A DNA stretch of 64,000 nt from Candidatus Epulonipiscium sp. (GTDB lineage Bacteria > Bacillota > Clostridia > Lachnospirales > JAAYNZ01): assembly GCA_012799415.1 (NCBI GenBank), contig JAAZLH010000090.1, positions 17,668-81,667 of the forward strand, read 5' to 3'. Of the stretch, positions 49,709 to 64,000 are shown piece after piece (position 1 is the stretch's first letter; the number at the start of each line of letters is the position of its first letter). The notes under the pieces are model-generated. The model was given only the letters and a program-made list of their open reading frames with translations, had not been told where the DNA came from and made no database searches. A program made the position numbers and the translations under genes.

Positions 49709-51007
<1,299 letters not shown>

Positions 51008-51017
51008 TTAGTAATAT

Positions 51018-51048
51018 AAAAACTCTCCTAGATAAAAGGAGAGTTTTT
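51018..51048 (-). terminator. Riboswitch expression-platform terminator
   Basis: AAAAACTCTCCT...AGGAGAGTTTTT between the SAM aptamer and metY. Confidence 0.8.
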
Positions 51049-51055
51049 GATTCTC

Positions 51056-51160
51056 CTCTTATCTGTCAGAAATAAATTCTGTTGGAATTAGCACCTTTCA
51101 TGTTCTACATGAGGTTGCCGGGTTTCATTGGGCCAGTCCCTCCACCACTCTCGATAAGAG
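51056..51160 (-). ncRNA. SAM-I (S-box) riboswitch
   Basis: Minus strand CTCTTATCGAGAG-TGGTGGAGGGACTGGCCC..GAAACCCGGCAACC...GGTGCTAATTCC...GATAAGAG. Confidence 0.95.
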
Positions 51161-51244
51161 TTTTATATTTTTTATTTTGTCTAAATTATCACATAATAGG
51201 ATTTTTGTCAATAGTAAATTTCTTATGCTTTTATTTTAGGGATG

Positions 51245-51466
51245 TCACCAAGGGAATTTTTGAACATTTTGGATAATACCACAAGCTAGTTTTTTACCTG
51301 AATTTCCTGCTGGTTGTGATCGATAATCATCAGGTGATTCATGAATAATAACACTTTTGCCAATGATATCATTAACATGAAATCGATTAGTAAAAAAAGA
51401 CATCCTGGCGACACCAGCGTTGGAAAATAATACAGGAAAATCGCCAGCATGGTTACCATGAGGTTG
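51245..51466 (-). CDS. sodC: 3' half of interrupted Cu/Zn superoxide dismutase
   Basis: QPHG-NHAGDFP...GKSVIIH..PDD..SQPAGNSGKKLACGII is the canonical SodC C-terminal half; no stops or frameshifts. Confidence 0.9.
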   Translation of the reverse strand, partial: QPHGNHAGDFPVLFSNAGVARMSFFTNRFHVNDIIGKSVIIHESPDDYRSQPAGNSGKKLACGIIQNVQKFPW

Positions 51467-51480
51467 TGTGTACTCATTGG
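51456..51480. repeat. attR: core CCATGAGGTTG (51456-51466) plus element arm TGTGTACTCATTGG
   Basis: Core identical to 62605-62615; arm is a 12/14 inverted match to 62588-62601. Confidence 0.9.
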
Positions 51481-51512
51481 CACTATAATGACCTATGATA
51501 TTGTACATTGAA

Positions 51513-53069
51513 CTAGATAAATACTTCCCATTCTATATCAATATTTAAAAGAGGTTTTACCCCATGATCTGCTTTACTTAACTGGTTAATAGTTATCCTT
51601 TTAACAAGGCTTTCTAAGTTTCTTCTTGTCAACTCGCCTTTTTGTATAATCTCATTTAAAATATCAAGAGATTTTATAGTATCCTTTTTAATATGAAGAT
51701 CTGCCTCTTGGAGATGTGTAAGTTCATTAAGTTGAGAAATCAATAATGTAAGCTCCCTATTTGCTTCATTTATCATTTCAGTAGCAATTTCTTCTATAAT
51801 AATGCCTTTAGCCAATTGCCTGGAGTAATTTTTAATTTCTTCTTTTTTTTCAGTAATTCTTATATTGTATTCAGCGATTGATTCTCCATAACTTTGATTA
51901 CAATTTGTTAGGTTGTTAATTTCTATATCTAATTGATCCAGATGATCCTCTATATACCTTTTTAACATTTCCAATTTATCTAGTATGATTTTAATTAATT
52001 CCCGTTCATTTATTTTGTGGCTACTACAAAATTTGGCTCCATAGAGATGATTATTTGTACAGATATAACTAGGGGGACTTCTTTTCTTTTTAACTTTCAT
52101 AAACCCTCCGCCGCAATCCCCACATTTAAGAAACCCTGCAAATAGATTAATGCCAGCACTTGTTCCCCTAACATTGTTGTTAACTCTATTATCTATGATT
52201 TTTTGTGCTAGTTCGAAATCCTCTTTTGAGATAATAGGTTCATGATAATCTTCATATATAACGTGCTTATCGTCATCTACGAAATGAGTTTTACCGTTTA
52301 CCTTTTTTCTCTTTGTCTTGCCACAGCGCAAAATTCCTATATACACATCATTTTTTATAATCCTTAGAACATGAGTTCCATTCCATTTTTCAGCAACACT
52401 ACTTGATATTTTTTTACCTGTTTTTATATATTGATATTTTGAAGGCGTTAGTACTCTTTCCCTATTTAATATGTTGGCTATGATTCTTCCACCATGTCCA
52501 CCAAGATAAAGTTGAAAGATTCTGGCCACTATAGCTGCAGCTTCTGCATCAATAATAAGTCGATGTTTATTATCTGGATCTCTTATATAGCCAAAGGGAA
52601 CCTTAGTAATTAAGCCACCTTCAGATTGCTTTGTACTTAGATTTGCTTTTATTTTTCTTGATAAATCTTTGATATATTTTTCATTATACCATGTTTTAAT
52701 CCCAATAATATCATCATCATCTTTATCACTATCGTAATTATCGTGTATGAGTATAAGTCTTACATTGTACTCTTCTAGGTACTCTAGGAATAATAAGGTT
52801 TTTGCATTATGGCGACCAATCCTGGATAAATCTTTTGTAAGAAGTATATCAACTTGGTTTAATTCTATCAGCTCCTTTAGCCTAGCTAACTCTCTTCTAT
52901 TAAAGATATATCCGGATATATTATCATCTTCAAAGATATATATGACAGATGAGCCTAATTGAGTAATCGCATAGTTTTTAATCATCTTTTTTTGAGTGAT
53001 AATCGTATCATAGTTTTCCTTATCTTCATCTCTAGAAACTCTGGCATACCCATATATTCTAAGTGCCAT
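51513..53069 (-). CDS. Large serine recombinase (SpoIVCA/CisA-like architecture)
   Basis: YARVS catalytic Ser, DDNISG, KDLSRIGR, recombinase domain, CGDCG..C..C zinc ribbon and coiled coil; ends 46 bp from the att core. Confidence 0.93.
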   Translation of the reverse strand: MALRIYGYARVSRDEDKENYDTIITQKKMIKNYAITQLGSSVIYIFEDDNISGYIFNRRELARLKELIELNQVDILLTKDLSRIGRHNAKTLLFLEYLEEYNVRLILIHDNYDSDKDDDDIIGIKTWYNEKYIKDLSRKIKANLSTKQSEGGLITKVPFGYIRDPDNKHRLIIDAEAAAIVARIFQLYLGGHGGRIIANILNRERVLTPSKYQYIKTGKKISSSVAEKWNGTHVLRIIKNDVYIGILRCGKTKRKKVNGKTHFVDDDKHVIYEDYHEPIISKEDFELAQKIIDNRVNNNVRGTSAGINLFAGFLKCGDCGGGFMKVKKKRSPPSYICTNNHLYGAKFCSSHKINERELIKIILDKLEMLKRYIEDHLDQLDIEINNLTNCNQSYGESIAEYNIRITEKKEEIKNYSRQLAKGIIIEEIATEMINEANRELTLLISQLNELTHLQEADLHIKKDTIKSLDILNEIIQKGELTRRNLESLVKRITINQLSKADHGVKPLLNIDIEWEVFI

Positions 53070-53092
53070 TTTGACTTCTCCCTTAGAACGAT

Positions 53093-53293
53093 CTACTTAT
53101 ATCGAAAAAGTTTGTTATAATCATTACGTATAACCTTCTTTTCTTTTAATCTTGATATAACTATATCTCTAAATGCTTCTTCTACTGTAATGGTTCCATC
53201 GAATCGATGGGTTACTTCCTCAATATTGTTATATTTATTTTTGTCAACAATAACTAAACCTTCACTATAATCTTTGCTTTTTACGATACTCAT
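53093..53293 (-). CDS. Small protein, candidate recombination directionality factor
   Basis: 66 aa, RBS AAGGGGGA, 23 bp upstream of and co-oriented with the recombinase; function inferred from position only. Confidence 0.55.
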   Translation of the reverse strand: MSIVKSKDYSEGLVIVDKNKYNNIEEVTHRFDGTITVEEAFRDIVISRLKEKKVIRNDYNKLFRYK

Positions 53294-53321
53294 ACTATTC
53301 CCCCTTTTGATTTCTACTTAC

Positions 53322-53350
53322 TAATATATGATCAAAAGACTTATACAGTG
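53322..53350 (-). promoter_or_regulatory. Sigma-K-like promoter of small ORF + recombinase
   Basis: Minus strand CACT-N16-CATATATTA versus sigma-K consensus mACm-N16-CATA---Ta. Confidence 0.6.
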
Positions 53351-53682
53351 CCTATATGCATTTGATATTTCAGTAACATATCAAGAGCATATAAGTTTAC
53401 AAACTCAGCCCCTATTGTTTTTTACTTTTTATATTTTAAAATGTTTTATTACTTATTGCCTTCTATAAATTCGCATATAAATACACTAGTCAATATTTTT
53501 GATTTAGTGTATTTATTATTTATGCCATATGTAATTCACATTCTTGTTTTTTCTTATGATCAATACTATAGGCTTCTAGTTTTCTATTGGTATTCCTCTT
53601 TGTTCTACATTTTTTCAATACTAGCCTACTATTAAATTAATAAAAACTTGTTGTTCTTTGGATAATAGGGGTTAGCAAGTTG

Positions 53683-53716
53683 AAAAACAACAGCCTATGA
53701 TAGACTGTTGTTTTCT
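53683..53716. terminator. Terminator separating cargo from the recombinase module
   Basis: AAAACAACAG-CCTATGATAGA-CTGTTGTTTT hairpin downstream of the NUDIX gene. Confidence 0.6.
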
Positions 53717-53768
53717 AGCTTATATTCTAGTTTTCAAGCTTTTTTTACAATTAAGCCTGATTGGGGTT

Positions 53769-54179
53769 TTATATAGCAGTTTGTATTTTCTTCATTAACT
53801 TTGGTTGTATCAAGGGGTATGTCCATTTCTCTGGTAAACCATCAAAAAGCTCTATCTTTTCTATTTCCATCTTTGGTAATTCTTCAAACATCTCAATCTC
53901 TGCAAAAAAAAGCATACCAAATGTTTCTTCACCATTTTTTATAACAGAATAAACACATATCTTCCTTAAATCAAACTTACTTGCACCCGTTTCTTCCCAA
54001 AGTTCTCTTTTAGCAGTTTCTAAAATTGTTTCTCCTGGTTCCCTATGTCCACCAGGGCATTCGTAAGTATCTCGTTCCTTATGCTTGCAAAATACCCATT
54101 TCCCTTTGTGATTTGCTACAATTACTGCAAATTTTAATAAGCTATCATCAACAGTATCATAAAATTTCACTTCTATCAT
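53769..54179 (-). CDS. NUDIX hydrolase
   Basis: Nudix box GGHREPGETILETAKRELWEETG. Confidence 0.9.
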   Translation of the reverse strand: MIEVKFYDTVDDSLLKFAVIVANHKGKWVFCKHKERDTYECPGGHREPGETILETAKRELWEETGASKFDLRKICVYSVIKNGEETFGMLFFAEIEMFEELPKMEIEKIELFDGLPEKWTYPLIQPKLMKKIQTAI

Positions 54180-54491
54180 CTATAAATCTCCTTTGCAAAA
54201 TATAAGCCTACGAATCCTTATCATTGTTTTTCAAATCATAATTTTCTTAAAAAGGCAATTTAAATTGATCAGTAGTAATTATATCATAACATCCTTGTCT
54301 TTAAAACGAATATATAAAATTAAAGTTTGAATGTACTATAAATACTTGATAGCTTAGAATTTTTAAAAACAAGGAGTAAAATACCGTAAAATTCATTTCT
54401 GAATAATACGGTATTAAAATAGGTTTTTTTATTTTGTAATAAACATTGGCTTACGTTAGCAATTGAAAAGGAGCTGATTGCTCAAAAGGTC

Positions 54492-55268
54492 TTATTTAGC
54501 ATTAAAGTATTTATAGCTCTCATATAAGGATATCCAATGTGCATATTTTATATGATTAAGCGCAATATCTCTTTTCAGGCCTGCTATCATACATGCTCGT
54601 GATAACTGATTTTTAGTAAATACTTTTTCAAAACCATAGGTTCTAACTGTTTTAATAAAATTGAAATAATTATTTTTATCAACTTCTTTAATATCTGTTA
54701 CATCCTTTTTCTTAAAGTGAACTAGAACAATATCTACCTTAGGTTTTGGGTGAAAATCATCTTTTTGAAAATAATAGGCAATATCCATTTCAAAAAAGGG
54801 CTTAATTTCTAATGACTTTAAACTTTCTTTTGAACTTCCTATAAATCTCTTGGATGCACCTTTCTCCATAATTAGCCACATCTCTTCTGGAGAGTATTTG
54901 CCTTTAGTCAGTTTATCAACTATTTCTGTAGTACTATTAAATGGAATATTCGAAAAAACTTTATATTTATCTATATTCGGAAGTTGCCAGTTTAAAAAAT
55001 CATGATGATATAATTTTAGGTTATTTTTATTTTTGAACTTGTTTTGTAATTGGTTATATAAATTAAAGTCCAGTTCAACTGCATATACTAAAGAACATTT
55101 ATTTAAAAGAATATCTGTTATATGGCCTTTACCTGGACCAATTTCTAAAACTATATCATTTCTGCTAAGATTTGTTTTCGTAATGCAATTATTTATTTTA
55201 AATCTTGATGTCAAAAAGTTTTGAGACATCTTAATACAATTATTTATTTCTTTTCTATTTTTAGACAT
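54492..55268 (-). CDS. erm: Erm-family 23S rRNA adenine-N6 methyltransferase (ErmQ-like)
   Basis: SQNFL, EIGPGKGHIT, VFSNIPF, MEKGASKRF and FHPKPKVD motifs; upstream leader peptide and attenuator. Confidence 0.85.
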   Translation of the reverse strand: MSKNRKEINNCIKMSQNFLTSRFKINNCITKTNLSRNDIVLEIGPGKGHITDILLNKCSLVYAVELDFNLYNQLQNKFKNKNNLKLYHHDFLNWQLPNIDKYKVFSNIPFNSTTEIVDKLTKGKYSPEEMWLIMEKGASKRFIGSSKESLKSLEIKPFFEMDIAYYFQKDDFHPKPKVDIVLVHFKKKDVTDIKEVDKNNYFNFIKTVRTYGFEKVFTKNQLSRACMIAGLKRDIALNHIKYAHWISLYESYKYFNAK

Positions 55269-55298
55269 AAAAAAACCCCTTTGTATTTATGATAGAAA

Positions 55299-55350
55299 TA
55301 AAAAAGGGCACACTAAAAGGACTTTACTTAAAGTCAAATTTAATGTGCTC
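55299..55350 (-). terminator. Attenuator hairpin in the erm leader
   Basis: Minus strand GAGCACATTAAA...TTTAGTGTGCCC followed by TTTTTT, with inner GACTTT/AAAGTC stem. Confidence 0.6.
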
Positions 55351-55351
55351 T

Positions 55352-55441
55352 TTATTTACGATCTCTATCAACCATACATAGGGATGTAGTAAATCTAATA
55401 CTAGCTCCCATGGAAATCATCATTCTATTTAAGAGTCCCAT
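55352..55441 (-). CDS. erm leader peptide MGLLNRMMISMGASIRFTTSLCMVDRDRK
   Basis: 29-codon ORF with RBS GTGAGG, directly upstream of the attenuator and erm; not in the ORF track. Confidence 0.6.
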   Translation of the reverse strand: MGLLNRMMISMGASIRFTTSLCMVDRDRK

Positions 55442-55689
55442 GTAATATCCTCACTTTTAAAAAATAAAAATCATCCAAAATGATAGATGTTAGTTTCTAA
55501 CACAACTTATTATATCAGAATCACTCCATCAATTCAACTAATATAAACCTTCTTTATTTCCCCAAGTTTCAAAGATATTTATGGTATAAATAATGTACAG
55601 CACAACGTTATAATTATCTTATCAAGAATAATATTTACTTTGGTTGTGGAACATCCATAATTATTTTTTGACAACTCCCACAATAGTAT

Positions 55690-56037
55690 GCTTCCATAGC
55701 AGCTGATGATAGCAGGTAATAATTAGCCAGTATCATCCTATGCAATGTCCTCCAATGATGGAATTACATACCATGTTCCGTGGATCTCCATTTCAGGATG
55801 TGGCTCTTTACCATAAATATATTCTTTATCAAATGCATTCGTATATATCAAGGTCAGACTTTCTGGTTCTAGAGTTATAACTTCTTCATTTATGGCAACT
55901 GTTATATCTGTATTTTGCTGTGAAGTATCATAAGTTGACTTTTCTAGTTTGTCGGCATCTAATTTTTTAAATGAATTATATGCTGCTAAAGTTCCAATTA
56001 ACATCACTAAAACAGTTAAAAATATAGTTTTTTTCAT
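55690..56037 (-). pseudogene. Degraded secreted protein (Ig-like domain?)
   Basis: Signal peptide ORF ends EDIA-TAG, then continues DDTG-TAA-LLPA, consistent with two premature stops. Confidence 0.4.
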
Positions 56038-56211
56038 AGATTACCACTCTCCTTAATTGATTTGACGAGAATGATACCTTGAAAGTTTCATATTTCTATA
56101 CATCTTCATCTTCTATTTTACATAGTACGATAATATAATATTATTGATTCATAGATTCAATAATATTATAAAGCATTGCATAAATAGTGAAAAAGTTTGA
56201 ACTCCATTGAA

Positions 56212-57054
56212 TTATACTTCAAAAGTCATTCCATCATAAGCAAAGATAATGTCCTTATATTGCTTTTGTAATTCTAAATAATCGTCATAAGACTTACCCC
56301 AATCTTCCTCTAAATGAGTAATAATAACTTCCTGAATCCTATATTTATCTTTTAGCTGCTCAATTTCAATCATATTAAACAATTCGTCATTAAGGATATT
56401 ATTTTCTTTTAAAATGTAGTTATCTTTTAGCACTTTACCAACAATAGTGCTTCCGATTATCAAAACATTTGCATCTTTAAAAATATCATTATCAGGAAAT
56501 GGCTTTACATCACAGGGAGCATAAATAACTTTATTTTTTTTCTGTTCAAAAACAAATACGGTTGCGGAATCTGCTTTAATAAAAGTTAATTTTATATCAT
56601 CTAAATAAATAAATTTGCTCACTACTTTTCTTTTAATTATATTCCTACTGTTTTCGTAATAATCTAAATAAGAACCAAGTTTAGATCCTATGGAATTCAT
56701 ATCAGACATAACATGTTCCATAGCAAATACACTAATCGGATTTGTACATTCTTTTCCTTCAGAAATTTCAAACCAATTAAGACGCATATGTTCAAAAATT
56801 CTCATGCCAAGAGTGTGGTCCGGGTCCATATGGCTAAATAGTACGAAATTAACTTGTTGAATGTTGGCATAATTTAATGCATGTACGATATCTTCAGGAG
56901 TATCTACTAATAAGTTTAAATCCTCTAAAAATAAACTACACCCAAATCTAGAATAGGGATTCCCTTTTTTTCTTGCTTCCTTACAAACTTTGCAATTGCA
57001 TAAAGGCTTAGGTAATGCAACACATCCCCCACTTCCTAATACTATAAATTTCAT
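56212..57054 (-). CDS. MBL-fold metallo-hydrolase (PhnP-like)
   Basis: LGSGG..P.P.C.C.VC, VDTPED, SHMDPDH and ITH motifs. Confidence 0.8.
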   Translation of the reverse strand: MKFIVLGSGGCVALPKPLCNCKVCKEARKKGNPYSRFGCSLFLEDLNLLVDTPEDIVHALNYANIQQVNFVLFSHMDPDHTLGMRIFEHMRLNWFEISEGKECTNPISVFAMEHVMSDMNSIGSKLGSYLDYYENSRNIIKRKVVSKFIYLDDIKLTFIKADSATVFVFEQKKNKVIYAPCDVKPFPDNDIFKDANVLIIGSTIVGKVLKDNYILKENNILNDELFNMIEIEQLKDKYRIQEVIITHLEEDWGKSYDDYLELQKQYKDIIFAYDGMTFEV

Positions 57055-57217
57055 GAATTATTCCCCCCATACCTATTCTGCTTAAATTTTACATATTAAA
57101 CCATTTATCTCCAAGGTATTATTCATTAAATACCCATTAACAGAAATTTGAACAGAAACTTTAGATACAACGCCCATTTTTTTTGATTTTATGCTATGGT
57201 ACATAAAGAAATCGATA

Positions 57218-58048
57218 TTATTTAACAAGTGAACTTACCCATCTATATCCCTCATCAATAAATGCTTCACTCGGATTTGTTTCTGGAGTATGTTCAAAAA
57301 TAAAGAGAACATCTTTAGATTGTGCTAAAAACTGTATTATCTTTTCAATTTTATAATAGTTGCTATTTTCTTGTGTTGGATGAACTGGTATCCAAATATA
57401 CCCATCCCCTTCATAATGCACATTATGTAAGTGAACTACTTTTATAAATTCTCTCCATTTTAATAAGTAATTAAAAATTTGCTCTTTCGTGGCAATCATA
57501 TAGTCTCCTATATCTATACATATCTTTATATTGTATTTTGCCCAAATCTCTATTGGGAATTTATCCAGATAATTTATTCCAGCAGGAGAACGATTAAGTC
57601 CAAGTTTAGGTTCACAAATAATATCAATTGAATATTGCTCTTGTATATACCTTAACTTTTTCAAACCTTCCTCAATTAATATGTTCGTATCGGTTAATAC
57701 CTCTTCTTTGAAATATGGAAAATGAACTAGAAGATATTCCATTCCTAAAGCTGACATCCTTTTTGCCTCTAATTCTAATTGCTTCCAAGCATATTTAGAA
57801 TCAAATTGAACTTTTTCAATTAGGTCATATTTACTGTCACCACGAAACAAAGGAGAATGAACACCAAAAGAGACCTGGTGCTGCCTAGATAGTGCTAGAA
57901 ATTTATTTAATGCTTCTTCATTAAGAAACTCTCCAATCTCAATATGCTCAATTCCTTTCCAAAATAACTCTGAATATAGTTCTGGATTTGAAAAAATTAT
58001 ACTACCTGAAACCCCTAATCTATGTGCCATTTTATCCCCCTTTCTCAT
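57218..58048 (-). CDS. Xylose-isomerase-like TIM-barrel protein
   Basis: GVHSP, LVHFP, CEP, DIGD, VHLHN and FEH metal-site pattern. Confidence 0.7.
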   Translation of the reverse strand: MRKGDKMAHRLGVSGSIIFSNPELYSELFWKGIEHIEIGEFLNEEALNKFLALSRQHQVSFGVHSPLFRGDSKYDLIEKVQFDSKYAWKQLELEAKRMSALGMEYLLVHFPYFKEEVLTDTNILIEEGLKKLRYIQEQYSIDIICEPKLGLNRSPAGINYLDKFPIEIWAKYNIKICIDIGDYMIATKEQIFNYLLKWREFIKVVHLHNVHYEGDGYIWIPVHPTQENSNYYKIEKIIQFLAQSKDVLFIFEHTPETNPSEAFIDEGYRWVSSLVK

Positions 58049-58424
58049 TAGTTATAGCTATAGCTTCTAGAATAATGGAGATTACTTCTATTTATCGCAT
58101 GATCAAAGCAAATGCTTATCATCTCTATTGTATTTTCTAATAAGACCACGGATATAATTGAATAATTCTAATCCTATTTCAATTTAGGTTCTTATTCAGT
58201 AGTTTGCTTGTCTTTTACAATAAGACAAGATACAGCCTAACAAATCTCTTTAGCATTTTTCTGAGAAGTAGCACATCTAATATTAGCAAGGTATTTTGTT
58301 CCACAAAAGCTCAATGTTCCTTGCCCGATATTAACTAGTTCTCCTTCAGCTATTATTGTGTTACAGTCAGTACAATGTAATAGAATCCCTACTGCCGGTA
58401 CTACCTTGTAAAATAAAATTATCT

Positions 58425-58690
58425 AAAGGAGAAAATAATTTTGTACCTATGGCCATACTACGACTCTCTCGTAAGATATATGAATACTTGAAAGTTATAA
58501 ATATCTTTTTGTGAGCCAAAAAGTTGATTTCCAATAGATGTAAATGCCATAAGCATATCATTATGAAATGCACCAAATACTGTGCTATCTGCTTCTATAA
58601 TGTTTTTCACATATTTAACCAGCTATTCATATTCTTCTAAACCTCCATTGTTCTTCATAATTAGATTGATATGTGTTTGATGGACAATAT
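58425..58690 (-). pseudogene. Decayed GNAT acetyltransferase fragment
   Basis: Across frames: TVFGAFHNDMLMAFTSIGNQLFGSQK..YL*LSSIHISYE/SRSMAIGTKLF (GNAT motif A) with stops and frameshifts. Confidence 0.5.
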
Positions 58691-58716
58691 GTTTTAATTA
58701 TACTTAAAGATAATGC

Positions 58717-59586
58717 TTATTTTACATGCTTTTCATTTTCTAAAGTAACCACTACAATTTCTGGTCTATTAAATACTCTAATAGGTACTATACTATTACC
58801 AAGTCCTCTACTAACAAATAATGTTGAATGGCTTTTTGTGTAGAAACCACTTGTATACTTAGGAAACAACCCCTGATCTGGTGCTACTAATCCTCCAATA
58901 AAAGGCAGCCTAAATTGTCCTCCATGTACATGTCCAGAAAAAATGAGGTCTATATTTTCATTTGCATAGAGATCAAAAAGTTCTGGTCGATGAGAAAGTA
59001 AAATTTGAAAAACGGAATCATCCGATAAGCGTAAGAGATGGTCTTTTAGTTTAGATGTATTTGTTCTCTCTATATAGTCAGATGTTAAAAAATCTGGATC
59101 TGATAGCCCTAATATTTCTATCATTGATTTATCTTTTATCAGTTTGACTTTATTATCATCAAGTACTTGTACACCGCAATTCAGCAATTCTTGGCTGATA
59201 TTTTTATAATCACTACACCATGCTTCATGATTTCCAGAAACATAGTACACAGGAGCAATTTTCATTGCACCATTTATAAATGTTATTGCAGTATCAAGAT
59301 CATATTTTCTTCTATCAATTAAATCACCGGTAACAACAATTATATCGGGAGAAATTGTTCTGATTTTTTTTAATAGGCACTCTTGATTTTGGCCAAATTC
59401 TTTATTATGTAAATCCGAAATTTGAACAATCGTATATCCGTTAAATCCCTCTGGTACTTTAGCATTACTATAATCTATTTGTGTTGTAATTATATCAATA
59501 TTCTGCCATATGCAAAATATTGATATGGCTGTGGCAGCAAAGGCCACAATAAACATAATTCTAATTTCCTTATGTTTTACAAACAT
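58717..59586 (-). CDS. Metallophosphoesterase (YkuE-like)
   Basis: SDLH, TGDLID, GNHE, LSHRP and GHVHGGQ motifs; N-terminal TM. Confidence 0.88.
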   Translation of the reverse strand: MFVKHKEIRIMFIVAFAATAISIFCIWQNIDIITTQIDYSNAKVPEGFNGYTIVQISDLHNKEFGQNQECLLKKIRTISPDIIVVTGDLIDRRKYDLDTAITFINGAMKIAPVYYVSGNHEAWCSDYKNISQELLNCGVQVLDDNKVKLIKDKSMIEILGLSDPDFLTSDYIERTNTSKLKDHLLRLSDDSVFQILLSHRPELFDLYANENIDLIFSGHVHGGQFRLPFIGGLVAPDQGLFPKYTSGFYTKSHSTLFVSRGLGNSIVPIRVFNRPEIVVVTLENEKHVK

Positions 59587-59831
59587 ATCCCACTTCCTAT
59601 TATCCATTATGTTTAGTTTATATTTTTCTACGCATATACATTTTATCAATAAGTTAATTCCCATTAAGCCAATAAATCCCTTAATAATATATATATTCAA
59701 TTTACTGTTATAAATAATCTTTATTTTTTTATACTATACAGATGTATATTCTATAAAAACTTCAAAACATTCGTTGATTTAATTCTTTCATAATTTATAA
59801 AGAATACATATATAGTTAACAGATAATAATA

Positions 59832-60194
59832 CTAAATTCCAAAGTGGATTAACCATTTATTTTCTTTGATTGCATCACAAATTTTTTCAATCAATTTTTC
59901 AAGTTCTCTTGATTTATACTCAATGTTCTCTTCATTAACAATATTTAAAAATTGCTTAAGAGACTTTGGAGGTATTAATGTTATTCCATAATATGCAAGA
60001 TCTTTGTAAGGTCTATTTGTATTATGTGCAAATGTTTCAAGTTTTTTCATTTTATTGCCGAACCCCTTATGATAGATTTCATCGATAAGGTCACCATCAA
60101 CAGAAATACAATTATATTTTTCAGGTTCATAGAAAGTGTAATCTTTATTTTCTTCAATATAATCAATCATTCCGAATTTATGGATATATGGCAT
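59832..60194 (-). CDS. Hypothetical protein
   Basis: RBS GGAGG before MPYIHKFG; LAYYGITLIPP..HFGI motifs. Confidence 0.65.
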   Translation of the reverse strand: MPYIHKFGMIDYIEENKDYTFYEPEKYNCISVDGDLIDEIYHKGFGNKMKKLETFAHNTNRPYKDLAYYGITLIPPKSLKQFLNIVNEENIEYKSRELEKLIEKICDAIKENKWLIHFGI

Positions 60195-60470
60195 AAACAG
60201 TCCTCCTAAATTGATATATTCATTTATCACATCTCAAATAATATAGATTGTCTTTTTTAGATTATATCACATTTAAATAATATATCGATCTATCTCATAA
60301 TTTTGGTAAAAAGTATTTTTAATATGATATCATTTCATTTTTAAAAGATATGATCACTACCTCTAACTTCTATATTTACATCATCTAATCTTTATTACTA
60401 TAGATCAATAAATTTTAGAAAAAAAGACATCCATGCTGATGTCTTATAATTCTTATTCTTATTCTTCTTC

Positions 60471-61118
60471 TCATTCATCCTCATTTTCATCTGTTTTCTC
60501 ATCCTTTATTTCATCTTCAGGGTGCTGCTTACAATTCTTACAAAGAGCATGAAAGATATCTTCATAAAAATCGCTACTGTCAGTATTTATTGCTTTCACA
60601 ATAGTAGAAATATCTGAATACTGTACAGGAATAAAATTTACTCTATTACTTTTAAGATATTTTTTTAATTCTAGATCAATTTTTAAACTTTCTTCATAGG
60701 AATGAATTCGCCCTCTGTTTTGATATTCCCTATTCCCTCTTTCTACAAAAAGATTAAGATTATTAAACTTTTGAGATAAAGAATTAGTTATCATCTGTAA
60801 AGTGTTTAAGCCCTCTTTGGCATAAATAATACTTTGTTTAATTGGGGCATCTGTTACAATGGCATCTACTTGACCATACATACGGTTAATTCTTCTAAAT
60901 TTTTCTGTAAGTATAGAAAGTTCATTTACAAATGAACCATCTAAAAGCTTTTCTTTTCCATCATAGATTAGCTCTTTAGCTACCTCGCCAACAAATTCCG
61001 CTTCAATTCTTCTTTTTCTAAGTTCACTCGTGATTTCTAATGCACATGTGGTTTTTCCTGACCCAGGACCACCAAAGAGGTTAATTACAATTGTATTGTA
61101 GGTCGCCGTTTTCCTCAC
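60471..61118 (-). CDS. P-loop NTPase (AAA_28 / nucleotide-kinase-like, mobile-element type)
   Basis: INLFGGPGSGKTT Walker A, VTDAP and GRIHSYEES motifs. Confidence 0.7.
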   Translation of the reverse strand: MRKTATYNTIVINLFGGPGSGKTTCALEITSELRKRRIEAEFVGEVAKELIYDGKEKLLDGSFVNELSILTEKFRRINRMYGQVDAIVTDAPIKQSIIYAKEGLNTLQMITNSLSQKFNNLNLFVERGNREYQNRGRIHSYEESLKIDLELKKYLKSNRVNFIPVQYSDISTIVKAINTDSSDFYEDIFHALCKNCKQHPEDEIKDEKTDENEDE

Positions 61119-61200
61119 TCCTTACTGTGTAAACTTTACTATAGCTCCAAAATCTCTTCTAATTTTAATTTTGAGGTTTATTTTATACAAGAGAGTATTA

Positions 61201-62073
61201 TTATAAATTAGACTTTGCATATTCTATTCTGCTTTTTAAATAATCATTCGTGGAGATTCCTTTTTCCGTAAACACTTTATAACATTCTAATGCTAACCTA
61301 TGCTGAGATATATCTATCAAATTTATTATAAAATTATTTATACCAACCCTTGCTTGATTATACATAGAACGCTTGCTATTAAGGTGCTCCCAAGTACCCC
61401 AAATACCCCAAATATCATAATAATCCTTTTTTTTATTATCCAAATCCAAATAAGGGACTAAAGCATCAAAAGAGTTCATTGCTTTATCTAATGTTTCAGA
61501 TTGAATTTCTTTTGTAATAAGTAGCAATGAATAATACGTAATCGTGTAAAACTTAATATTGTAATCAAGTGGGTTTTCTTCTATAAGATTCTTCATATTA
61601 TTTAATGCAAATTCAGATATTCTTTTATTAGGCTTCCCAAGATTTGGATTTTTCAAGGCTACTGCTGCTCTATGAGATTCAAATCTGATTCCTAAATTAG
61701 TGCTTGTTTTTGGTGCAGTATTACAGGCTGTTTGATATAAATCGAACCAAAAGTCTCCGTATCCTCCTTGAATTAGTGTTGCCTTTTGTGTACCATCTGA
61801 AACAGGCCAAAACAGCATTTCTTTAGGTAGCTCTTTATTAACAAAATCTAAAAATTTTATATGATTCTTAAGTTCTTCATCCGCCATTCTAAGCATGGCA
61901 TAATTATCTGAAATACTCCAGTATGCCCATCCGATATCCATATTATTCTTCGTGTCTTTATTATTTAAAAAATCTTGAAGAGTAGATATAATTTTTGTCT
62001 TATTGTTCTCTTTTTGAAGTTGCCTTATTGTGTTAAGTAGATTAATATCCATATATTTGCCCTCCCTAATCAT
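61201..62073 (-). CDS. Hypothetical protein
   Basis: 290-aa open frame; no family recognised. Confidence 0.7.
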   Translation of the reverse strand: MIREGKYMDINLLNTIRQLQKENNKTKIISTLQDFLNNKDTKNNMDIGWAYWSISDNYAMLRMADEELKNHIKFLDFVNKELPKEMLFWPVSDGTQKATLIQGGYGDFWFDLYQTACNTAPKTSTNLGIRFESHRAAVALKNPNLGKPNKRISEFALNNMKNLIEENPLDYNIKFYTITYYSLLLITKEIQSETLDKAMNSFDALVPYLDLDNKKKDYYDIWGIWGTWEHLNSKRSMYNQARVGINNFIINLIDISQHRLALECYKVFTEKGISTNDYLKSRIEYAKSNL

Positions 62074-62587
62074 TAATTTATCATATTACTGATGTATACT
62101 AATAAAATCTTGCCGAAATAGTCTCACCATCTAGTACTCATTATCTCATTCTAATCATCCTCCTAAGATTATTAATTTTCAGTGGAGCTAGTATATAGAG
62201 TTACTTATCTCTAAAAGTGCCTAATTACTCATTTATTTCATATTATAATACTATTGAGTATTTTATCAAAGTCTTTATTTTTCTATCAATTGCTTTCCAA
62301 GAGACTCCTCTTTATATCATCTTTTTATCTATTAAAGTTTTGATTTTCTCCAATCAATTAGCATATAGATTAAACTTACAATGCGTCTGAATCTCAACTA
62401 CAGTGATATCATCATAGAGTTGTCAATAATGTAGATGTTCCTTTACGCATCTTAAAAATCAAACCAAATCTTTCTTATCTATAAGAAAATAATAGGAGCA
62501 AAAGCTAAGCATATTTTCCATATGCTTGTCCATTTTTATTGTTTATATAATCTGTTGTTATCATTGTATTGTTATTCACTAAACTAT

Positions 62588-62615
62588 CCAATGAGTCTAC
62601 ACTGCCATGAGGTTG
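62588..62615. repeat. attL: element arm CCAATGAGTCTACA plus core CCATGAGGTTG (62605-62615)
   Basis: Direct repeat of 51456-51466; arm inverted relative to 51467-51480. Confidence 0.9.
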
Positions 62616-62891
62616 GTTATCTGGATTCCAATGCCCACCTGTACTACCAAAGGGCTCATTAGGATTGCCAATAGTACAATTTCCAAATTCATGAATATGG
62701 AAACCATGTGGACCGATTGGTGATTGACCGGGTTGAGCCGGCTGATACTTAGGCAATCCTTGAATATATACATAAACTTCTGTACCATTTGGAACATCTT
62801 TAAAAATAACTGTTCCTATAATCTGTGGTGCTAGTGGTCCACCTTTAATATAAGCAATAGCTATAGGTTGTTTCATGTAATTATTCATCAT
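62605..62891 (-). CDS. sodC: 5' half of interrupted Cu/Zn superoxide dismutase
   Basis: GPHGFHIHEFGNC...GGHWNPDNQPHG; similarity to SodC stops exactly at the repeat; RBS AGGAGAG. Confidence 0.9.
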
Positions 62892-62926
62892 TATAATCTC
62901 TCCTATTTATAAATAAATCTCAAAAT

Positions 62927-62955
62927 CATCTTATGCCCGCGCATACGTAGATGTG
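62927..62955 (-). promoter_or_regulatory. Sigma-K-like promoter of sodC
   Basis: Minus strand CACA-N16-CATAAGATG, just downstream of the uraA terminator. Confidence 0.65.
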
Positions 62956-62970
62956 AGAAAGCTAGGATAA

Positions 62971-63015
62971 TAAAAAGCAACAACCGAAGTCAATGACCTC
63001 AGTTGTTGCTTTTTA
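62971..63015 (-). terminator. Terminator of the permease gene
   Basis: TAAAAAGCAACAAC...GTTGTTGCTTTTTA inverted repeat. Confidence 0.8.
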
Positions 63016-63016
63016 T

Positions 63017-64000
63017 TTATATATTTTCAGGTAAAAGTTTATTAAGTATAATTCCAATGAAAGCAGCAATAGCTAAACCAGAAACACTCAGACCATCAGC
63101 TACAGGAATTTCCTGAATAGCAATACCTAAAACTAAAATTAGAGAAGAAATAATCAAATTTCTACTATAGCTAAATTCTAATTTTGCATCAATTAAAGTA
63201 CGTACACCAACACTAGCAATCATACCGAAAAGAATAATACTAATTCCACCCATAACCGCTGGAGGAATAGAACGAATGAGAGCACCAAATTTTCCAATAA
63301 AGCTTAATACAATGGCAAATCCTGCTGCAACCCGAAGAATACTAGGATCATATATTTTTGTCACAGCTAGAACCCCTGTATTTTCACTATAAGTCGTATT
63401 TGCAGGTCCACCTAAGAGGCCAGCAACAATAGTTGCTAGTCCATCTCCAAGCATAGTTCTATGGATCCCTGGGTCTTCAAAAAAATCTTTTCCAACTACA
63501 GCACCATTGGTTGTAATATCTCCAATATGCTCAATAAATACTACTAAAGCAATGGGAGCAATAGCTAATATTCCAGTTAAATTAAATACAGGTAACGTAG
63601 TTAGGTCTGCCCATGCTGCTGCTGGAAAGCCAAACCAAGCAGCTTCTTTAATAGGTGTAAAATCTACTAAGTCAAAAGGAATCGAAACAAGATAACCTAC
63701 TATTACAGATATTAAAATAGGAACAAGCTTAAAAAAGCCTTTAGCAAAGATTGAAACAATAATCATTGTGACAACAACAACTCCTGCAATAAATAAAGCA
63801 GTATAATCAATTTCACTAAGCTTTGTTTGGCTATTATAAAAATAACCACTCATTTCTAAAGCTACAGTACTTAGTCTGAGACCAATGACCATAACAATTG
63901 GACCTGTTACAATAGGCGGAAAGAAAGAGTGTACTTTATCAACTCCAAATATTTTAATAACAAAAGCCATTATCACATAAATCAAACCTGCAACTATAAC
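63017..64000 (-). CDS. uraA: Uracil/xanthine permease (NCS2), 5'-truncated by the window edge
   Basis: FPPIVTGP, EHIGD and PANTTYSEN motifs. Confidence 0.85.
   Translation of the reverse strand, partial: VIVAGLIYVIMAFVIKIFGVDKVHSFFPPIVTGPIVMVIGLRLSTVALEMSGYFYNSQTKLSEIDYTALFIAGVVVVTMIIVSIFAKGFFKLVPILISVIVGYLVSIPFDLVDFTPIKEAAWFGFPAAAWADLTTLPVFNLTGILAIAPIALVVFIEHIGDITTNGAVVGKDFFEDPGIHRTMLGDGLATIVAGLLGGPANTTYSENTGVLAVTKIYDPSILRVAAGFAIVLSFIGKFGALIRSIPPAVMGGISIILFGMIASVGVRTLIDAKLEFSYSRNLIISSLILVLGIAIQEIPVADGLSVSGLAIAAFIGIILNKLLPENI

What the first reader, a model, noticed from the sequence alone, without database searches (positions are those of the whole stretch)
51245..62955. Cu/Zn-SOD gene split by an 11.1-kb serine-recombinase element: candidate new skin-like programmed gene rearrangement
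Seen: the two 'short ORFs' at 62505-62891 and 51245-51508 are the N- and C-halves of one sodC gene. Both contain the same 11 bp (CAACCTCATGG on the minus strand, coding Q-P-H-G). Recombination between the copies removes 11,149 bp and gives an in-frame 165-aa protein (...HGFHIH...GGHWNPDNQPHG|NHAGDF...VIIH...ACGII) with all the canonical Cu and Zn ligands. Neither half has a stop or frameshift, although cargo inside the element is decaying, which suggests the halves are still under selection. An intact large serine recombinase lies next to attR. No phage structural or conjugation genes are present. Known: sporulation genes rebuilt by excision include sigK (skin), spsM (SPbeta), gerE (gin), spoVFB and spoVR. 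Inference: this is the same strategy at a different target. I do not recall a described sodC-intervening element, but could not search.
Basis: partly seen in the sequence, partly recalled or inferred. Interest (0 to 1): 0.93.

Follow-up and report, generated by a model that had tools for sequence, protein, structure and literature searches.

The report
Recombinase island splitting a superoxide-dismutase gene
In an uncultured spore-forming bacterium from biogas and sludge reactors, the only Cu/Zn superoxide dismutase gene is cut in two by an 11-kb island that carries its own cut-and-paste enzyme, and the sequence suggests, without proving, that the island is removed during spore formation to rebuild the gene.

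Summary
The two short ORFs are the complementary halves of the genome's only sodC. They are separated by 11,149 bp, bounded by an 11-bp direct repeat, and join in frame to 165 aa. A large serine recombinase (LSR) lies 46 bp from one junction. Contigs from three of four independent metagenome runs bridge both junctions, so this is not an assembly artefact.

New here:
- The host has Spo0A, SpoIVA and SpoIIID, and its sigK is also split beside a different LSR, so it carries a skin-type element.
- A strict sigma-K-type promoter motif lies 28 nt upstream of a 66-aa ORF that forms an operon with the LSR. A complex prediction places that ORF where recombination directionality factors bind (0.68; best control 0.00).
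- sodC and 4 of 11 orthologues carry a sigma-K-type motif at the same spacing.
- 27 LSR clusters at 64-72% identity exist elsewhere. In 11 of them the ORF runs into a sodC 3' half at the same PHGNH site.

Against:
- No excised junction was seen in contigs.
- The cargo includes an Erm-family methyltransferase.
- Elements appear to move between hosts.
- sodC is not a proven sporulation gene.

Verdict: a probable new sodC-targeting member of the sporulation gene-intervening elements. The timing of excision is unproven.

The parts
62928..62954 (-). Sigma-K-type promoter motif upstream of sodC (AC-N17-CATAAGAT), 36 nt before the ATG
   Evidence: Sequence; motif scan. The same relaxed motif at 30-46 nt occurs in 5 of 12 sodC loci, against 27 of 2586 (1.0%) ORFs in G000.
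62616..62891 (-). sodC 5' part (codons for the N-terminal ~92 aa, upstream of the core)
   Evidence: Pfam Sod_Cu positions 2-62; alignment with orthologues.
62605..62615 (-). attL core copy, CAACCTCATGG (encodes Q-P-H-G)
62505..62604 (-). Element-derived read-through tail of the N-half ORF (32 aa, then a stop); holds the right arm of attP
51467..62604 (.). Intervening island, 11,138 bp between the cores, 29.2% GC against 33.2% in the flanks and 34.2% in the genome
   Evidence: No match in the plasmid collection.
61201..62073 (-). Cargo ORF, 290 aa, no family found. An 18-bp in-frame insertion relative to the window is seen in runs X3 and X4.
60471..61118 (-). Cargo: AAA_28 P-loop protein
59832..60230 (-). 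Cargo ORF, 132 aa, no family found
58717..59700 (-). Cargo: calcineurin-like (YaeI-like) phosphoesterase
57218..58048 (-). Cargo: xylose-isomerase-like TIM-barrel protein
56212..57054 (-). Cargo: MBL-fold hydrolase (weak match)
55638..56037 (-). Probable frameshifted gene: a Big_14 ORF (55738-56037), then a DUF6487 remnant in another frame (55638-55763)
54492..55268 (-). Cargo: Erm-family 23S rRNA methyltransferase (a probable macrolide-lincosamide-streptogramin B resistance gene; that reading of the family is recalled, and function was not tested)
   Evidence: NF000499 scores 219.1 bits against a cut-off of 212; Pfam RrnaAD.
53769..54179 (-). Cargo: NUDIX hydrolase (YtkD-like, below the cut-off)
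53322..53349 (-). Strict sigma-K-type promoter motif (AC-N17-CATATATTA), 28 nt upstream of ORF66
   Evidence: The genome holds 301 such motifs in all, 41 of them placed 15-120 nt before an RBS plus ORF. It is the only such placed motif in the 114-kb contig C303.
53093..53293 (-). ORF66, a candidate recombination directionality factor with a strong RBS, 23 nt upstream of the LSR start
   Evidence: Complex prediction: ipSAE 0.68, best control 0.00, with the interface at the LSR DBD2/coiled-coil junction and C-terminal strand.
51513..53069 (-). Large serine recombinase, 518 aa
   Evidence: Pfam Resolvase, Recombinase and Zn_ribbon_recom; PHROG 95 integrase at 307 bits; Ser12 invariant in family alignment A2.
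51456..51466 (-). attR core copy, CAACCTCATGG
51245..51455 (-). sodC 3' part (69 codons plus the stop)
   Evidence: Pfam Sod_Cu to position 133 of 133; alignment.

Best explanation
This is an 11.1-kb non-phage integrative island of a previously undescribed family of LSR elements. The family inserts into the Zn-ligand-coding PHG(NH) site of a leaderless Cu/Zn superoxide dismutase gene in anaerobic spore-formers.

Proposed mechanism:
1. Late in sporulation, sigma-K RNA polymerase in the mother cell transcribes the ORF66-LSR operon from the AC-N17-CATATATTA promoter.
2. ORF66 acts as the recombination directionality factor. It binds the LSR at the DBD2/coiled-coil junction, so that the LSR recombines attL with attR.
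3. The island leaves as a circle, and an intact 165-aa sodC is left under its own sigma-K-type promoter.
4. SodC is then made in the mother cell, probably for the spore surface. The spore keeps the interrupted copy.

Shown: the split, the repeats, the frame, the LSR, the host's sporulation genes and split sigK, and the existence of related elements at the same site. Inferred: use of the promoter, the RDF function, the timing and cell type of excision, and the location of SodC.
For: Structure:
- The two halves, the 11-bp repeat and the in-frame 165-aa product are confirmed.
- Relatives G001 and G002 have intact sodC at the syntenic permease-sodC-SDR locus.
- The reconstructed attP has a dyad (15 of 22 ungapped) centred inside the core. 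That puts it in the top 2% of 3000 random 71-mers.
- The integrated form is bridged at both junctions by contigs in 3 of 4 runs from 4 studies.

Host:
- Spo0A_C, SpoIVA and SpoIIID are present.
- sigK is itself split, with the N half beside a different LSR (21% identity).

Control logic:
- The strict sigma-K motif lies 28 nt before ORF66. The genome has only 301 such motifs, 41 of them placed before an ORF. Those 41 include the sigK N half (31 nt) and a CotJA gene (27 nt).
- Sigma-E and sigma-K share the -10 box, with AC at -35 for sigma-K (PMC3789822, passages).
- No sigma-70-like site lies on that strand in the 475-nt gap upstream of ORF66.
- ORF66-LSR complex: 0.80, 0.68 and 0.67, median 0.68, best of 3 controls 0.00. 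The runs agree in at least 50% of their contacts and the partner's pLDDT is 49-69. The mark was reached by 51 of 78 solved complexes and 2 of 108 mismatched pairs.
- The predicted interface is at the DBD2/coiled-coil junction with beta-strand addition, as described for known RDFs (PMC12286644, passages).

sodC as a sporulation gene:
- The relaxed sigma-K motif lies 30-46 nt upstream in 5 of 12 loci, against a 1.0% background.
- 53 of 55 sodC-positive genomes in the order sample have SpoIVA. sodC is present in 2 of 89 SpoIVA-negative genomes (Fisher p 9e-5; relatives are not independent).
- I saw no N-terminal leader in the aligned orthologues (by eye; not tested with a predictor).
- LysM-SodC fusions exist.

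Family:
- 27 LSR clusters lie at 64-72% identity. 11 of them, 599-610 aa long, carry Sod_Cu at the C-terminus, joined at (L/Q)PHGNH.
- Two metagenome proteins are sodC N halves that end just after QPHGNH.
Against: - No joint skipping 11,149 bp was among the 12 joints listed for 4 runs. These were contigs, which drop rare variants.
- The promoter evidence is motif-based. 7 of 12 sodC loci lack the motif as I defined it, and most of the 41 strict-motif genes are not recognisable sporulation genes (for example a Glu/Gln-type aminoacyl-tRNA synthetase, MFS, M20 peptidase).
- None of my searches found sodC described as a sporulation gene.
- ORF66 has no detectable homologue outside its own cluster. 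It folds with low confidence, and in the tool's own calibration 7 of 44 blind neighbouring gene pairs also pass.
- The island has lower GC, an Erm-family gene and no relative in the same lineage. Only G000 among 401 genomes of the order has sodC split into distant halves.
- P0015 and P0018 have identical SodC 3' halves but LSRs that differ by 21%, which implies horizontal movement.
- I could not obtain DNA context for any related element.
Confidence: 0.55

Rival explanations
1. This is an ordinary mobile genomic island, LSR-driven and carrying an Erm-family gene. It uses the highly conserved PHGNH-coding stretch of sodC as its attB because that site is conserved and the gene is dispensable. 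sodC is simply inactivated. Excision is sporadic and serves transfer, not development.
For: - Erm-family cargo.
- GC of 29.2% against 34.2% for the genome.
- Among 401 genomes of the order, only G000 has sodC split into two distant halves.
- Identical host 3' halves with LSRs 21% apart (P0015 and P0018) show that the elements move.
- No excised form was seen.
- LSR-driven resistance cassettes are a known kind. The LSR's best NCBIfam hits are CcrB, XisF and CcrA, all far below their cut-offs.
Against: - A strict sigma-K-type motif is the only consensus promoter found before the ORF66-LSR operon. Excision in a mother cell is a dead end for a selfish element.
- No relaxase, conjugation or phage packaging family was found in the ORFs scanned.
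- The sodC halves keep all ligands and an open frame. Of the 3 listed strain SNPs in the 3' half, 2 are synonymous and 1 lies in the non-conserved tail.
- The integrated form is the one assembled in all 4 runs examined.
Confidence: 0.33
2. This is a reversible 'active lysogeny' switch. The island excises and reintegrates in growing cells in response to a signal such as oxygen or copper stress, turning sodC on and off in the germ line.
For: - The LSR with a predicted RDF could run both reactions.
- sodC function relates to oxidative stress.
- Reversible switches of this sort are reviewed in PMC13492144 (passages).
Against: - No stress-type regulator or promoter was found in the island.
- The only promoter motif found is of the mother-cell type.
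- No empty-site contig was found in the 4 runs.
Confidence: 0.08
3. This is an assembly or binning artefact: a chimeric contig joins unrelated DNA inside sodC.
For: The genome is a 449-contig MAG with 5.65% contamination.
Against: - Contigs from three independent runs (X3, X4, X5; different studies and years) span both junctions at about 99.7% identity.
- A JGI contig carries the identical LSR.
- The repeat, the frame and the attP dyad would not arise from chimerism.
Confidence: 0.01

Closest known systems
skin element in sigK (Bacillus subtilis, Clostridioides difficile; SpoIVCA/CD1231 with RDF Skr/CD1234)
   Same: An LSR lies beside an att site. A short direct repeat sits inside a coding gene. 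Excision restores the ORF. A small RDF is under mother-cell control (PMC5025042 abstract; PMC10747680 and PMC4191935 passages). The host here also has a split sigK.
   Different: The target is sodC, an enzyme gene rather than a regulator. There are no phage remnants. This LSR is only 21% identical to the host's own sigK-adjacent LSR. Excision has not been demonstrated.
gin element in gerE of Bacillus cereus ATCC 10987
   Same: A non-prophage island interrupts a sporulation gene and is excised by a serine recombinase plus an accessory factor at a 9-bp core (PMC5595907, abstract and passages).
   Different: gin is 28.6 kb with three recombinases; this island is 11.1 kb with one. gerE is a proven mother-cell gene; sodC is not.
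SPbeta in spsM (SprA/SprB) and the yin element in yabG of Clostridium botulinum
   Same: In SPbeta a mother-cell promoter lies directly upstream of a small RDF gene. In yin a sigma-K-type motif is proposed before a predicted RDF, and the RDF was found by complex modelling at the recombinase C-terminal region (PMC4191935 and PMC10747680 passages).
   Different: Those are prophages or prophage-like. yin is confined to one strain. Here a family of related LSRs is seen at the same site in several taxa.
LSR-mobilised resistance cassettes (SCCmec Ccr recombinases; Tn4451-type TnpX, recalled)
   Same: A large serine recombinase moves a small island with a resistance-type gene. CcrB is the best NCBIfam hit at 107.6 bits.
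   Different: That score is far below the cut-off of 900. Insertion is inside a coding gene with frame-restoring repeats. A mother-cell-type promoter is present.
XisF fdxN element of Anabaena heterocysts
   Same: An LSR performs developmental excision in a terminally differentiated cell. It is the second-best NCBIfam hit at 99.5 bits.
   Different: The score is below the cut-off of 375. The phylum and the developmental programme are different.

Membership tests
Large serine recombinase (integrase) | N-terminal resolvase catalytic domain with the nucleophilic Ser | tested here: met
   PF00239 at residues 5-152, 73.4 bits. Ser12 in YARVSRDED is invariant across 16 family members.
Large serine recombinase (integrase) | Recombinase domain (DBD1) plus a zinc-ribbon domain (DBD2) with an inserted coiled coil | tested here: met
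   PF07508 at 176-295 and PF13408 at 309-366. The coiled coil is inferred from the region at about 370-470 and the complex model.
Large serine recombinase (integrase) | att sites with a short identical core and an attP with dyad symmetry | tested here: met
   An 11-bp core occurs twice. The attP dyad is 15 of 22, centred in the core, in the top 2% of random 71-mers. attB is weaker at 13 of 22.
Sporulation gene-intervening element (skin-like) | Interrupts a coding gene; precise excision restores an intact ORF | tested here: met
   The in-silico join gives 165 aa in frame, 121 of 165 aligned columns identical to G002 SodC. Ligands are intact.
Sporulation gene-intervening element (skin-like) | The host forms endospores | tested here: met
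   Spo0A_C, SpoIVA and SpoIIID are over their cut-offs, and sigK is present though split. This is gene content only; no spores were observed.
Sporulation gene-intervening element (skin-like) | The interrupted gene is a mother-cell-expressed sporulation gene | tested here: inconclusive
   A sigma-K-type motif is present in 5 of 12 sodC loci against a 1.0% background. 53 of 55 sodC-positive genomes have SpoIVA. There are no expression data.
Sporulation gene-intervening element (skin-like) | The recombinase or RDF is under sporulation-specific control | tested here: inconclusive
   A strict AC-N17-CATATATTA motif lies 28 nt before ORF66, at the same spacing as in the sigK and cotJA genes of this genome. 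This is motif evidence only.
Sporulation gene-intervening element (skin-like) | Excision occurs during sporulation, in the mother cell | not testable with these tools
   Only contigs of metagenome runs could be laid, and they held no excision joint. Testing this needs cultures or raw reads.
Cu/Zn superoxide dismutase (PF00080) | A complete Sod_Cu domain with Cu and Zn ligands and the disulfide Cys pair | tested here: met
   The halves cover profile positions 2-62 and 50-133. The ligand motifs are conserved in the alignment; the ligand assignment itself is recalled. The gene is complete only after joining.
Erm 23S rRNA methyltransferase | Score over the NCBIfam Erm23S_rRNA_broad cut-off | tested here: met
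   219.1 bits against 212, which is marginal. The best allele-specific model, Erm(45), scores 148.8 against 525. Resistance was not tested.
Prophage | Phage structural, packaging or lysis genes | tested here: not met
   A PHROG scan of 10 island ORFs found only integrase, NUDIX and kinase-like families. The metallophosphoesterase ORF 58717-59700 was not in that scan. A viral-contig scan with the LSR family alignment found none.
Integrative conjugative or mobilisable element | Relaxase, coupling protein or type IV secretion genes | tested here: not met
   No such family was found among the Pfam and NCBIfam hits of the island ORFs.

The most novel reading that the evidence does not exclude
A widespread, host-tamed family of sodC-intervening elements exists in anaerobic spore-formers (this lineage, and taxa whose source records are named Tissierella and Alkaliphilus). 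In this host it forms the second tier of a cascade of programmed DNA rearrangements. Skin excision makes sigma-K. Sigma-K then drives an RDF-LSR operon that rebuilds sodC. That would reveal a leaderless Cu/Zn SOD as a late mother-cell spore-surface enzyme that is kept switched off in the germ line.
Probability: 0.35. Interest if true: 0.75.

Novelty: new member of a known kind. Interest (0 to 1): 0.62.

Why it matters
Gene-intervening elements excised during sporulation are known for a handful of targets: sigK, spsM, spoVFB, spoVR, gerE and yabG (PMC10747680 and PMC4191935 passages). A sodC-targeting family would matter in three ways.

- It would add an enzyme gene that is not on any sporulation list. 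That predicts a spore-associated role for leaderless Cu/Zn SOD in strict anaerobes.
- It would give a natural case of two such elements in one genome, wired in series through sigma-K.
- It offers a compact LSR, RDF and att-site set (518 aa, 66 aa, sites of about 50 bp) with a conserved protein-coding attB. Such sets are useful for recombinase tool collections.

It also shows that in some relatives the recombinase ORF runs across attR into host coding sequence, so the enzyme's C-terminus would differ between the integrated and excised states. That is a possible regulatory feature worth testing.

Tried and rejected
- Close LSR relatives by pattern scan. Genome contigs gave only 36-37% relatives. 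Metagenome contigs gave the identical LSR on a 3.4-kb contig, which ends 27 nt after the stop and 20 nt short of the core so it is uninformative, plus relatives at 36% or less. The word-based protein search later found the 64-72% family, so the pattern scans had missed it.
- DNA context for that family. A viral-contig scan with alignment A2 found none. A class-level sample of 401 genomes (2 not scored) gave only 45% and 42% LSRs, and the 45% one (G425) lies beside a membrane-protein gene, not sodC. Partial sodC matches in G196, G318, G181 and G156 have no LSR nearby. Element size, cargo, N halves and RDFs of the relatives therefore remain unseen.
- ORF66 homologues. Only its own cluster was found. 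The search is word-based and weak for 66 aa.
- Whole island against plasmids: no match. LSR against phages: 33.6% identity or less.
- Excision joints. None of the 12 joints listed fits the cores. All have short sides of 21-28 nt and look like repeats or other organisms. The depth spikes at 50934-51400 are explained by a SAM riboswitch.
- The R-to-K change in GKKLACG was considered as a sign of decay and rejected, because K also occurs in 3 intact orthologues.
- Pseudogene remnants in 10 intergenic frames. Only one credible hit was found, to DUF6487.
- Selection on the halves. dN/dS was not attempted, because divergence from relatives mostly predates insertion and only 3 strain SNPs were listed. 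The intact 3' halves in the fused relatives are biased by how they were found, since an open frame was required.
- The Mantel test of LSR against SodC 3'-half distances gave r 0.73, p 0.0013, n 12. This fits co-divergence, but sequences are non-independent and there is at least one clear incongruence, so I give it little weight.
- Literature. Abe et al. 2013 (Mol Microbiol) is not held, and supplements are closed. Its tables, and the supplementary tables of PMC4191935 and PMC10747680, may list further interrupted genes that I could not see.

Full report
**Observation**

The two short ORFs are real and are complementary pieces of one Cu/Zn superoxide dismutase gene. The ORF at 62505-62891(-) matches Pfam Sod_Cu positions 2-62. 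The ORF at 51245-51508(-) matches positions 50-133. The 11-mer CAACCTCATGG occurs exactly twice in the 64-kb window, at the two break points, against 0.00 expected in 100 shuffles.

Joining the parts by coordinates in a script (numbers only) gives a 498-nt open frame of 165 aa and removes 11,149 bp. In an alignment with 11 intact orthologues the halves overlap only at QPHG. They keep the motifs HGFHIH, GGHW, QPHGNH, AGD and IIH and both cysteines. Assigning these motifs as Cu/Zn ligands is recalled knowledge. These are the only Sod_Cu matches in the whole 3.65-Mb genome.

The two other genomes of the same family, G001 and G002, have an intact sodC of 176 and 160 aa between the same permease gene and the same short-chain dehydrogenase gene.

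**Not an artefact**

The window comes from a 449-contig MAG. The stretch is held by runs from biogas, sludge and digester metagenomes: 20 rows from 12 studies, 10 of them with at least half of the sampled words. I laid four runs from four studies.

- In X3, X4 and X5, single contigs span attR (for example 50000-54412) and attL (for example 61047-64000), with about 10 differences per 4 kb.
- X7 is fragmentary but covers both the island and the flanks.
- None of the 12 listed joints corresponds to the 11,149-bp deletion.
- Contigs drop rare variants, so this does not exclude low-level excision.

**The island**

Between the cores lie 11,138 bp at 29.2% GC, against 33.2% in the flanks and 34.2% in the genome. 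All eleven ORFs of 66 aa or more that I treat as its genes are on the sodC strand. Reading downstream from attL along that strand:

- a 290-aa protein of no known family
- an AAA_28 P-loop protein
- a 132-aa protein of no known family
- a YaeI-like metallophosphoesterase
- a TIM-barrel protein
- an MBL-fold protein
- a Big_14 fragment, followed out of frame by a DUF6487 remnant
- an Erm-family 23S rRNA methyltransferase (219.1 bits against a cut-off of 212)
- a NUDIX hydrolase
- ORF66
- the LSR, whose stop lies 46 bp from the attR core

These assignments rest. No phage structural, relaxase or secretion family was found. The island has no match among plasmids.

The reconstructed attP has a dyad of 15 of 22 positions centred inside the core. 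That is the top 2% of random 71-mers, and it is what an LSR attP looks like. attB is less symmetric.

**The host sporulates and already has a skin-type element**

Spo0A_C, SpoIVA (on the same contig, about 9 kb beyond the window) and SpoIIID are present over their cut-offs.

The sigma-K model matches two separate contigs. Positions 12-118 lie on C329, directly beside a large serine recombinase. Positions 109-226 lie on C327, near a small membrane protein that could be a phage holin (my guess, not tested). The organism therefore carries a split sigK. Its LSR is only 21% identical to the sodC-island LSR, so the two systems are independent.

**Control signals**

ORF66 (66 aa, strong RBS) ends 23 nt before the LSR start. 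A perfect AC-N17-CATATATTA lies 28 nt upstream of its ATG. The sigma-K consensus is AC at -35 with a CATA-type -10 box that sigma-E shares (PMC3789822, passages).

- The genome holds 301 such strict motifs, 0.04 per kb per strand.
- 41 of them lie 15-120 nt before an RBS plus ORF.
- This is the only such placed motif on the 114-kb contig.
- The same motif at nearly the same spacing precedes the sigK N half (31 nt) and a CotJA gene (27 nt; Pfam CotJA, 47 bits).
- spoIVA and spoIIID carry CATATAT-type -10 boxes.
- Most other genes in the set of 41 are not recognisable sporulation genes, so the motif alone has a real false-positive rate.
- No sigma-70-like site was found on that strand in the gap upstream of ORF66.

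**ORF66 as a directionality factor**

A complex prediction of LSR residues 150-518 with ORF66 scored 0.80, 0.68 and 0.67 (median 0.68), against 0.00 for the best of three controls. The runs agreed in at least 50% of contacts. The partner's pLDDT was 49-69, so its own fold is uncertain. In calibration the mark was reached by 51 of 78 solved complexes and 2 of 108 mismatched pairs, and also by 7 of 44 neighbouring gene pairs drawn blind.

The contacts lie on LSR residues 353-388, 465-490 and 505-518. That is the zinc-ribbon/coiled-coil junction plus a C-terminal strand. Known RDFs are reported or modelled to bind there, often by adding a beta strand (PMC12286644, passages). The SPbeta integrase-RDF complex has been solved, so part of this pass may reflect likeness to it.

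**Is sodC a sporulation gene here?**

- G000 sodC has AC-N17-CATAAGAT 36 nt before its ATG. G002 has a strict version at 46 nt.
- Across 12 sodC loci from several families, 5 have the relaxed motif at 30-46 nt. In G000, 27 of 2586 ORFs (1.0%) do. The background comes from one genome, and I chose the motif window after seeing the first cases.
- In a 401-genome sample of the order, 55 genomes have sodC and 312 have SpoIVA. By my reading of the two lists, 53 of the 55 sodC genomes have SpoIVA; the exceptions are 66% and 89% complete. Only 2 of 89 SpoIVA-negative genomes have sodC (Fisher p 9e-5). Relatives are not independent.
- I saw no N-terminal leader in the aligned orthologues; this is by eye and was not tested with a signal-peptide predictor. 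Two metagenome proteins fuse a LysM domain to this SodC. I take that to suggest deposition from the mother cell onto the spore, which is inference.
- PMC3533761 (passages) notes that SOD and other oxygen-detoxifying proteins are widespread in anaerobic clostridia and may serve spore survival.

**A family at the same site**

The word-based protein search found 27 LSR clusters at 64-72% identity, then two at 55%, then 49% or less. Some source records are named Alkaliphilus sp. MSJ-5, Alkaliphilus oremlandii and Tissierella praeacuta.

- Eleven of the 27 are 599-610 aa long and carry a precomputed Sod_Cu domain.
- Their sequences show the LSR reading straight on through a conserved linker (SSIHNIMDMYNEDT or similar) into (L/Q)PHGNH(A/S/I)GDFPVLFSN and on to the sodC stop. 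This is the same insertion point.
- In G000 the homologous linker is present, but the LSR stops earlier and the 3' half is in another frame.
- Two metagenome proteins are sodC N halves that end 3 and 6 residues after QPHGNH.
- In the order sample, only G000 has sodC in two distant halves.
- LSR and SodC 3'-half distances correlate (Mantel r 0.73, p 0.0013, n 12). However, P0015 and P0018 share an identical 3' half while their LSRs differ by 21%. So the elements have moved between, or been replaced in, closely related hosts.
- I could not obtain DNA context for any relative.

**Reading**

The mechanistic capacity is well supported: an LSR, its att sites and frame-restoring excision. The developmental reading rests on four independent but indirect lines:

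1. The host has a sporulation programme and a split sigK.
2. A mother-cell-type promoter precedes a predicted RDF-LSR operon.
3. Mother-cell-type motifs and sporulation-linked distribution are seen for sodC.
4. A recurrent element family sits at one site.

The main rival is a plain mobile island. It is supported by the Erm-family cargo, the low GC, the evidence of horizontal movement and the absence of any observed excision. I put the developmental model at 0.55, the plain island at 0.33, a reversible switch at 0.08 and an artefact at 0.01.

**Prior description**

Five full-text searches and passages of the key papers list sigK, spsM, spoVFB, spoVR, gerE and yabG as interrupted genes. None mentions sodC.

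Noticed in passing
G000 contigs C329:2769-3092 (L022) and C327:1222-1575 (L023): sigK is split in this genome. The N half (model positions 12-118) lies directly beside a large serine recombinase that is cut by the contig end. The C half (109-226) is on another contig, near a small membrane protein that could be a phage holin (my guess, not tested). This looks like a skin-type element, and the assembly breaks inside it.
   Followed up: partly
window 51056-51160 (-): A SAM riboswitch (RF00162, 98.9 bits) lies upstream of the O-acetylhomoserine sulfhydrylase-like gene at 49709-50992. It explains the depth spike and the loose ends at 51112-51163 in the laid runs.
   Followed up: yes
window 54492-55268 (-): An Erm-family 23S rRNA methyltransferase lies in the island, just over the broad NCBIfam cut-off (219.1 against 212) and far from any named allele. 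A short stretch at about 54378-54414, downstream of it, is highly repeated in two sludge runs (depth about 105 against 13).
   Followed up: no
G022, G116, G149, G165, G371 (genus g22), sodC matches: Five species of one genus show a single in-frame stop (TAA in four, TGA in one) inside an otherwise full-length sodC match. This could be a shared pseudogene, a two-ORF arrangement or a start-site effect.
   Followed up: no
proteins P0212 and P0226: These metagenome proteins fuse an N-terminal LysM domain to a complete SodC of this clade. I saw no leader at their N-termini (not tested). This hints at peptidoglycan or cortex-associated placement.
   Followed up: no
proteins P0005, P0008, P0010, P0013-15, P0017, P0018, P0024-26: In 11 related elements the recombinase ORF has no stop before attR and runs on into the sodC 3' half (599-610 aa). 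The enzyme's C-terminus would therefore differ between the integrated and excised states.
   Followed up: partly
proteins P0015 and P0018: The SodC 3' halves are identical but the recombinases differ by 21%. Two element lineages occupy the same or a sister host's sodC.
   Followed up: partly
window 55638-56037 (-): A 99-aa Big_14 ORF is followed in another frame by the C-terminal part of a DUF6487 domain (27.5 bits). This is a probable frameshifted cargo gene.
   Followed up: partly
window 61394, 58053, 60449: Strain differences between runs include an 18-bp in-frame insertion (in X3 and X4) inside the 290-aa cargo ORF and two 6-bp deletions near gene ends. All are multiples of three.
   Followed up: no
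G000 contigs C37, C378, C399 (L035, L042, L046, L047): Several cysteine-rich proteins of no or unknown family (DUF346 repeats, DUF6143) lie behind strict sigma-K-type motifs at 25-42 nt (one at 96 nt). They are candidate spore coat proteins of this organism.
   Followed up: partly
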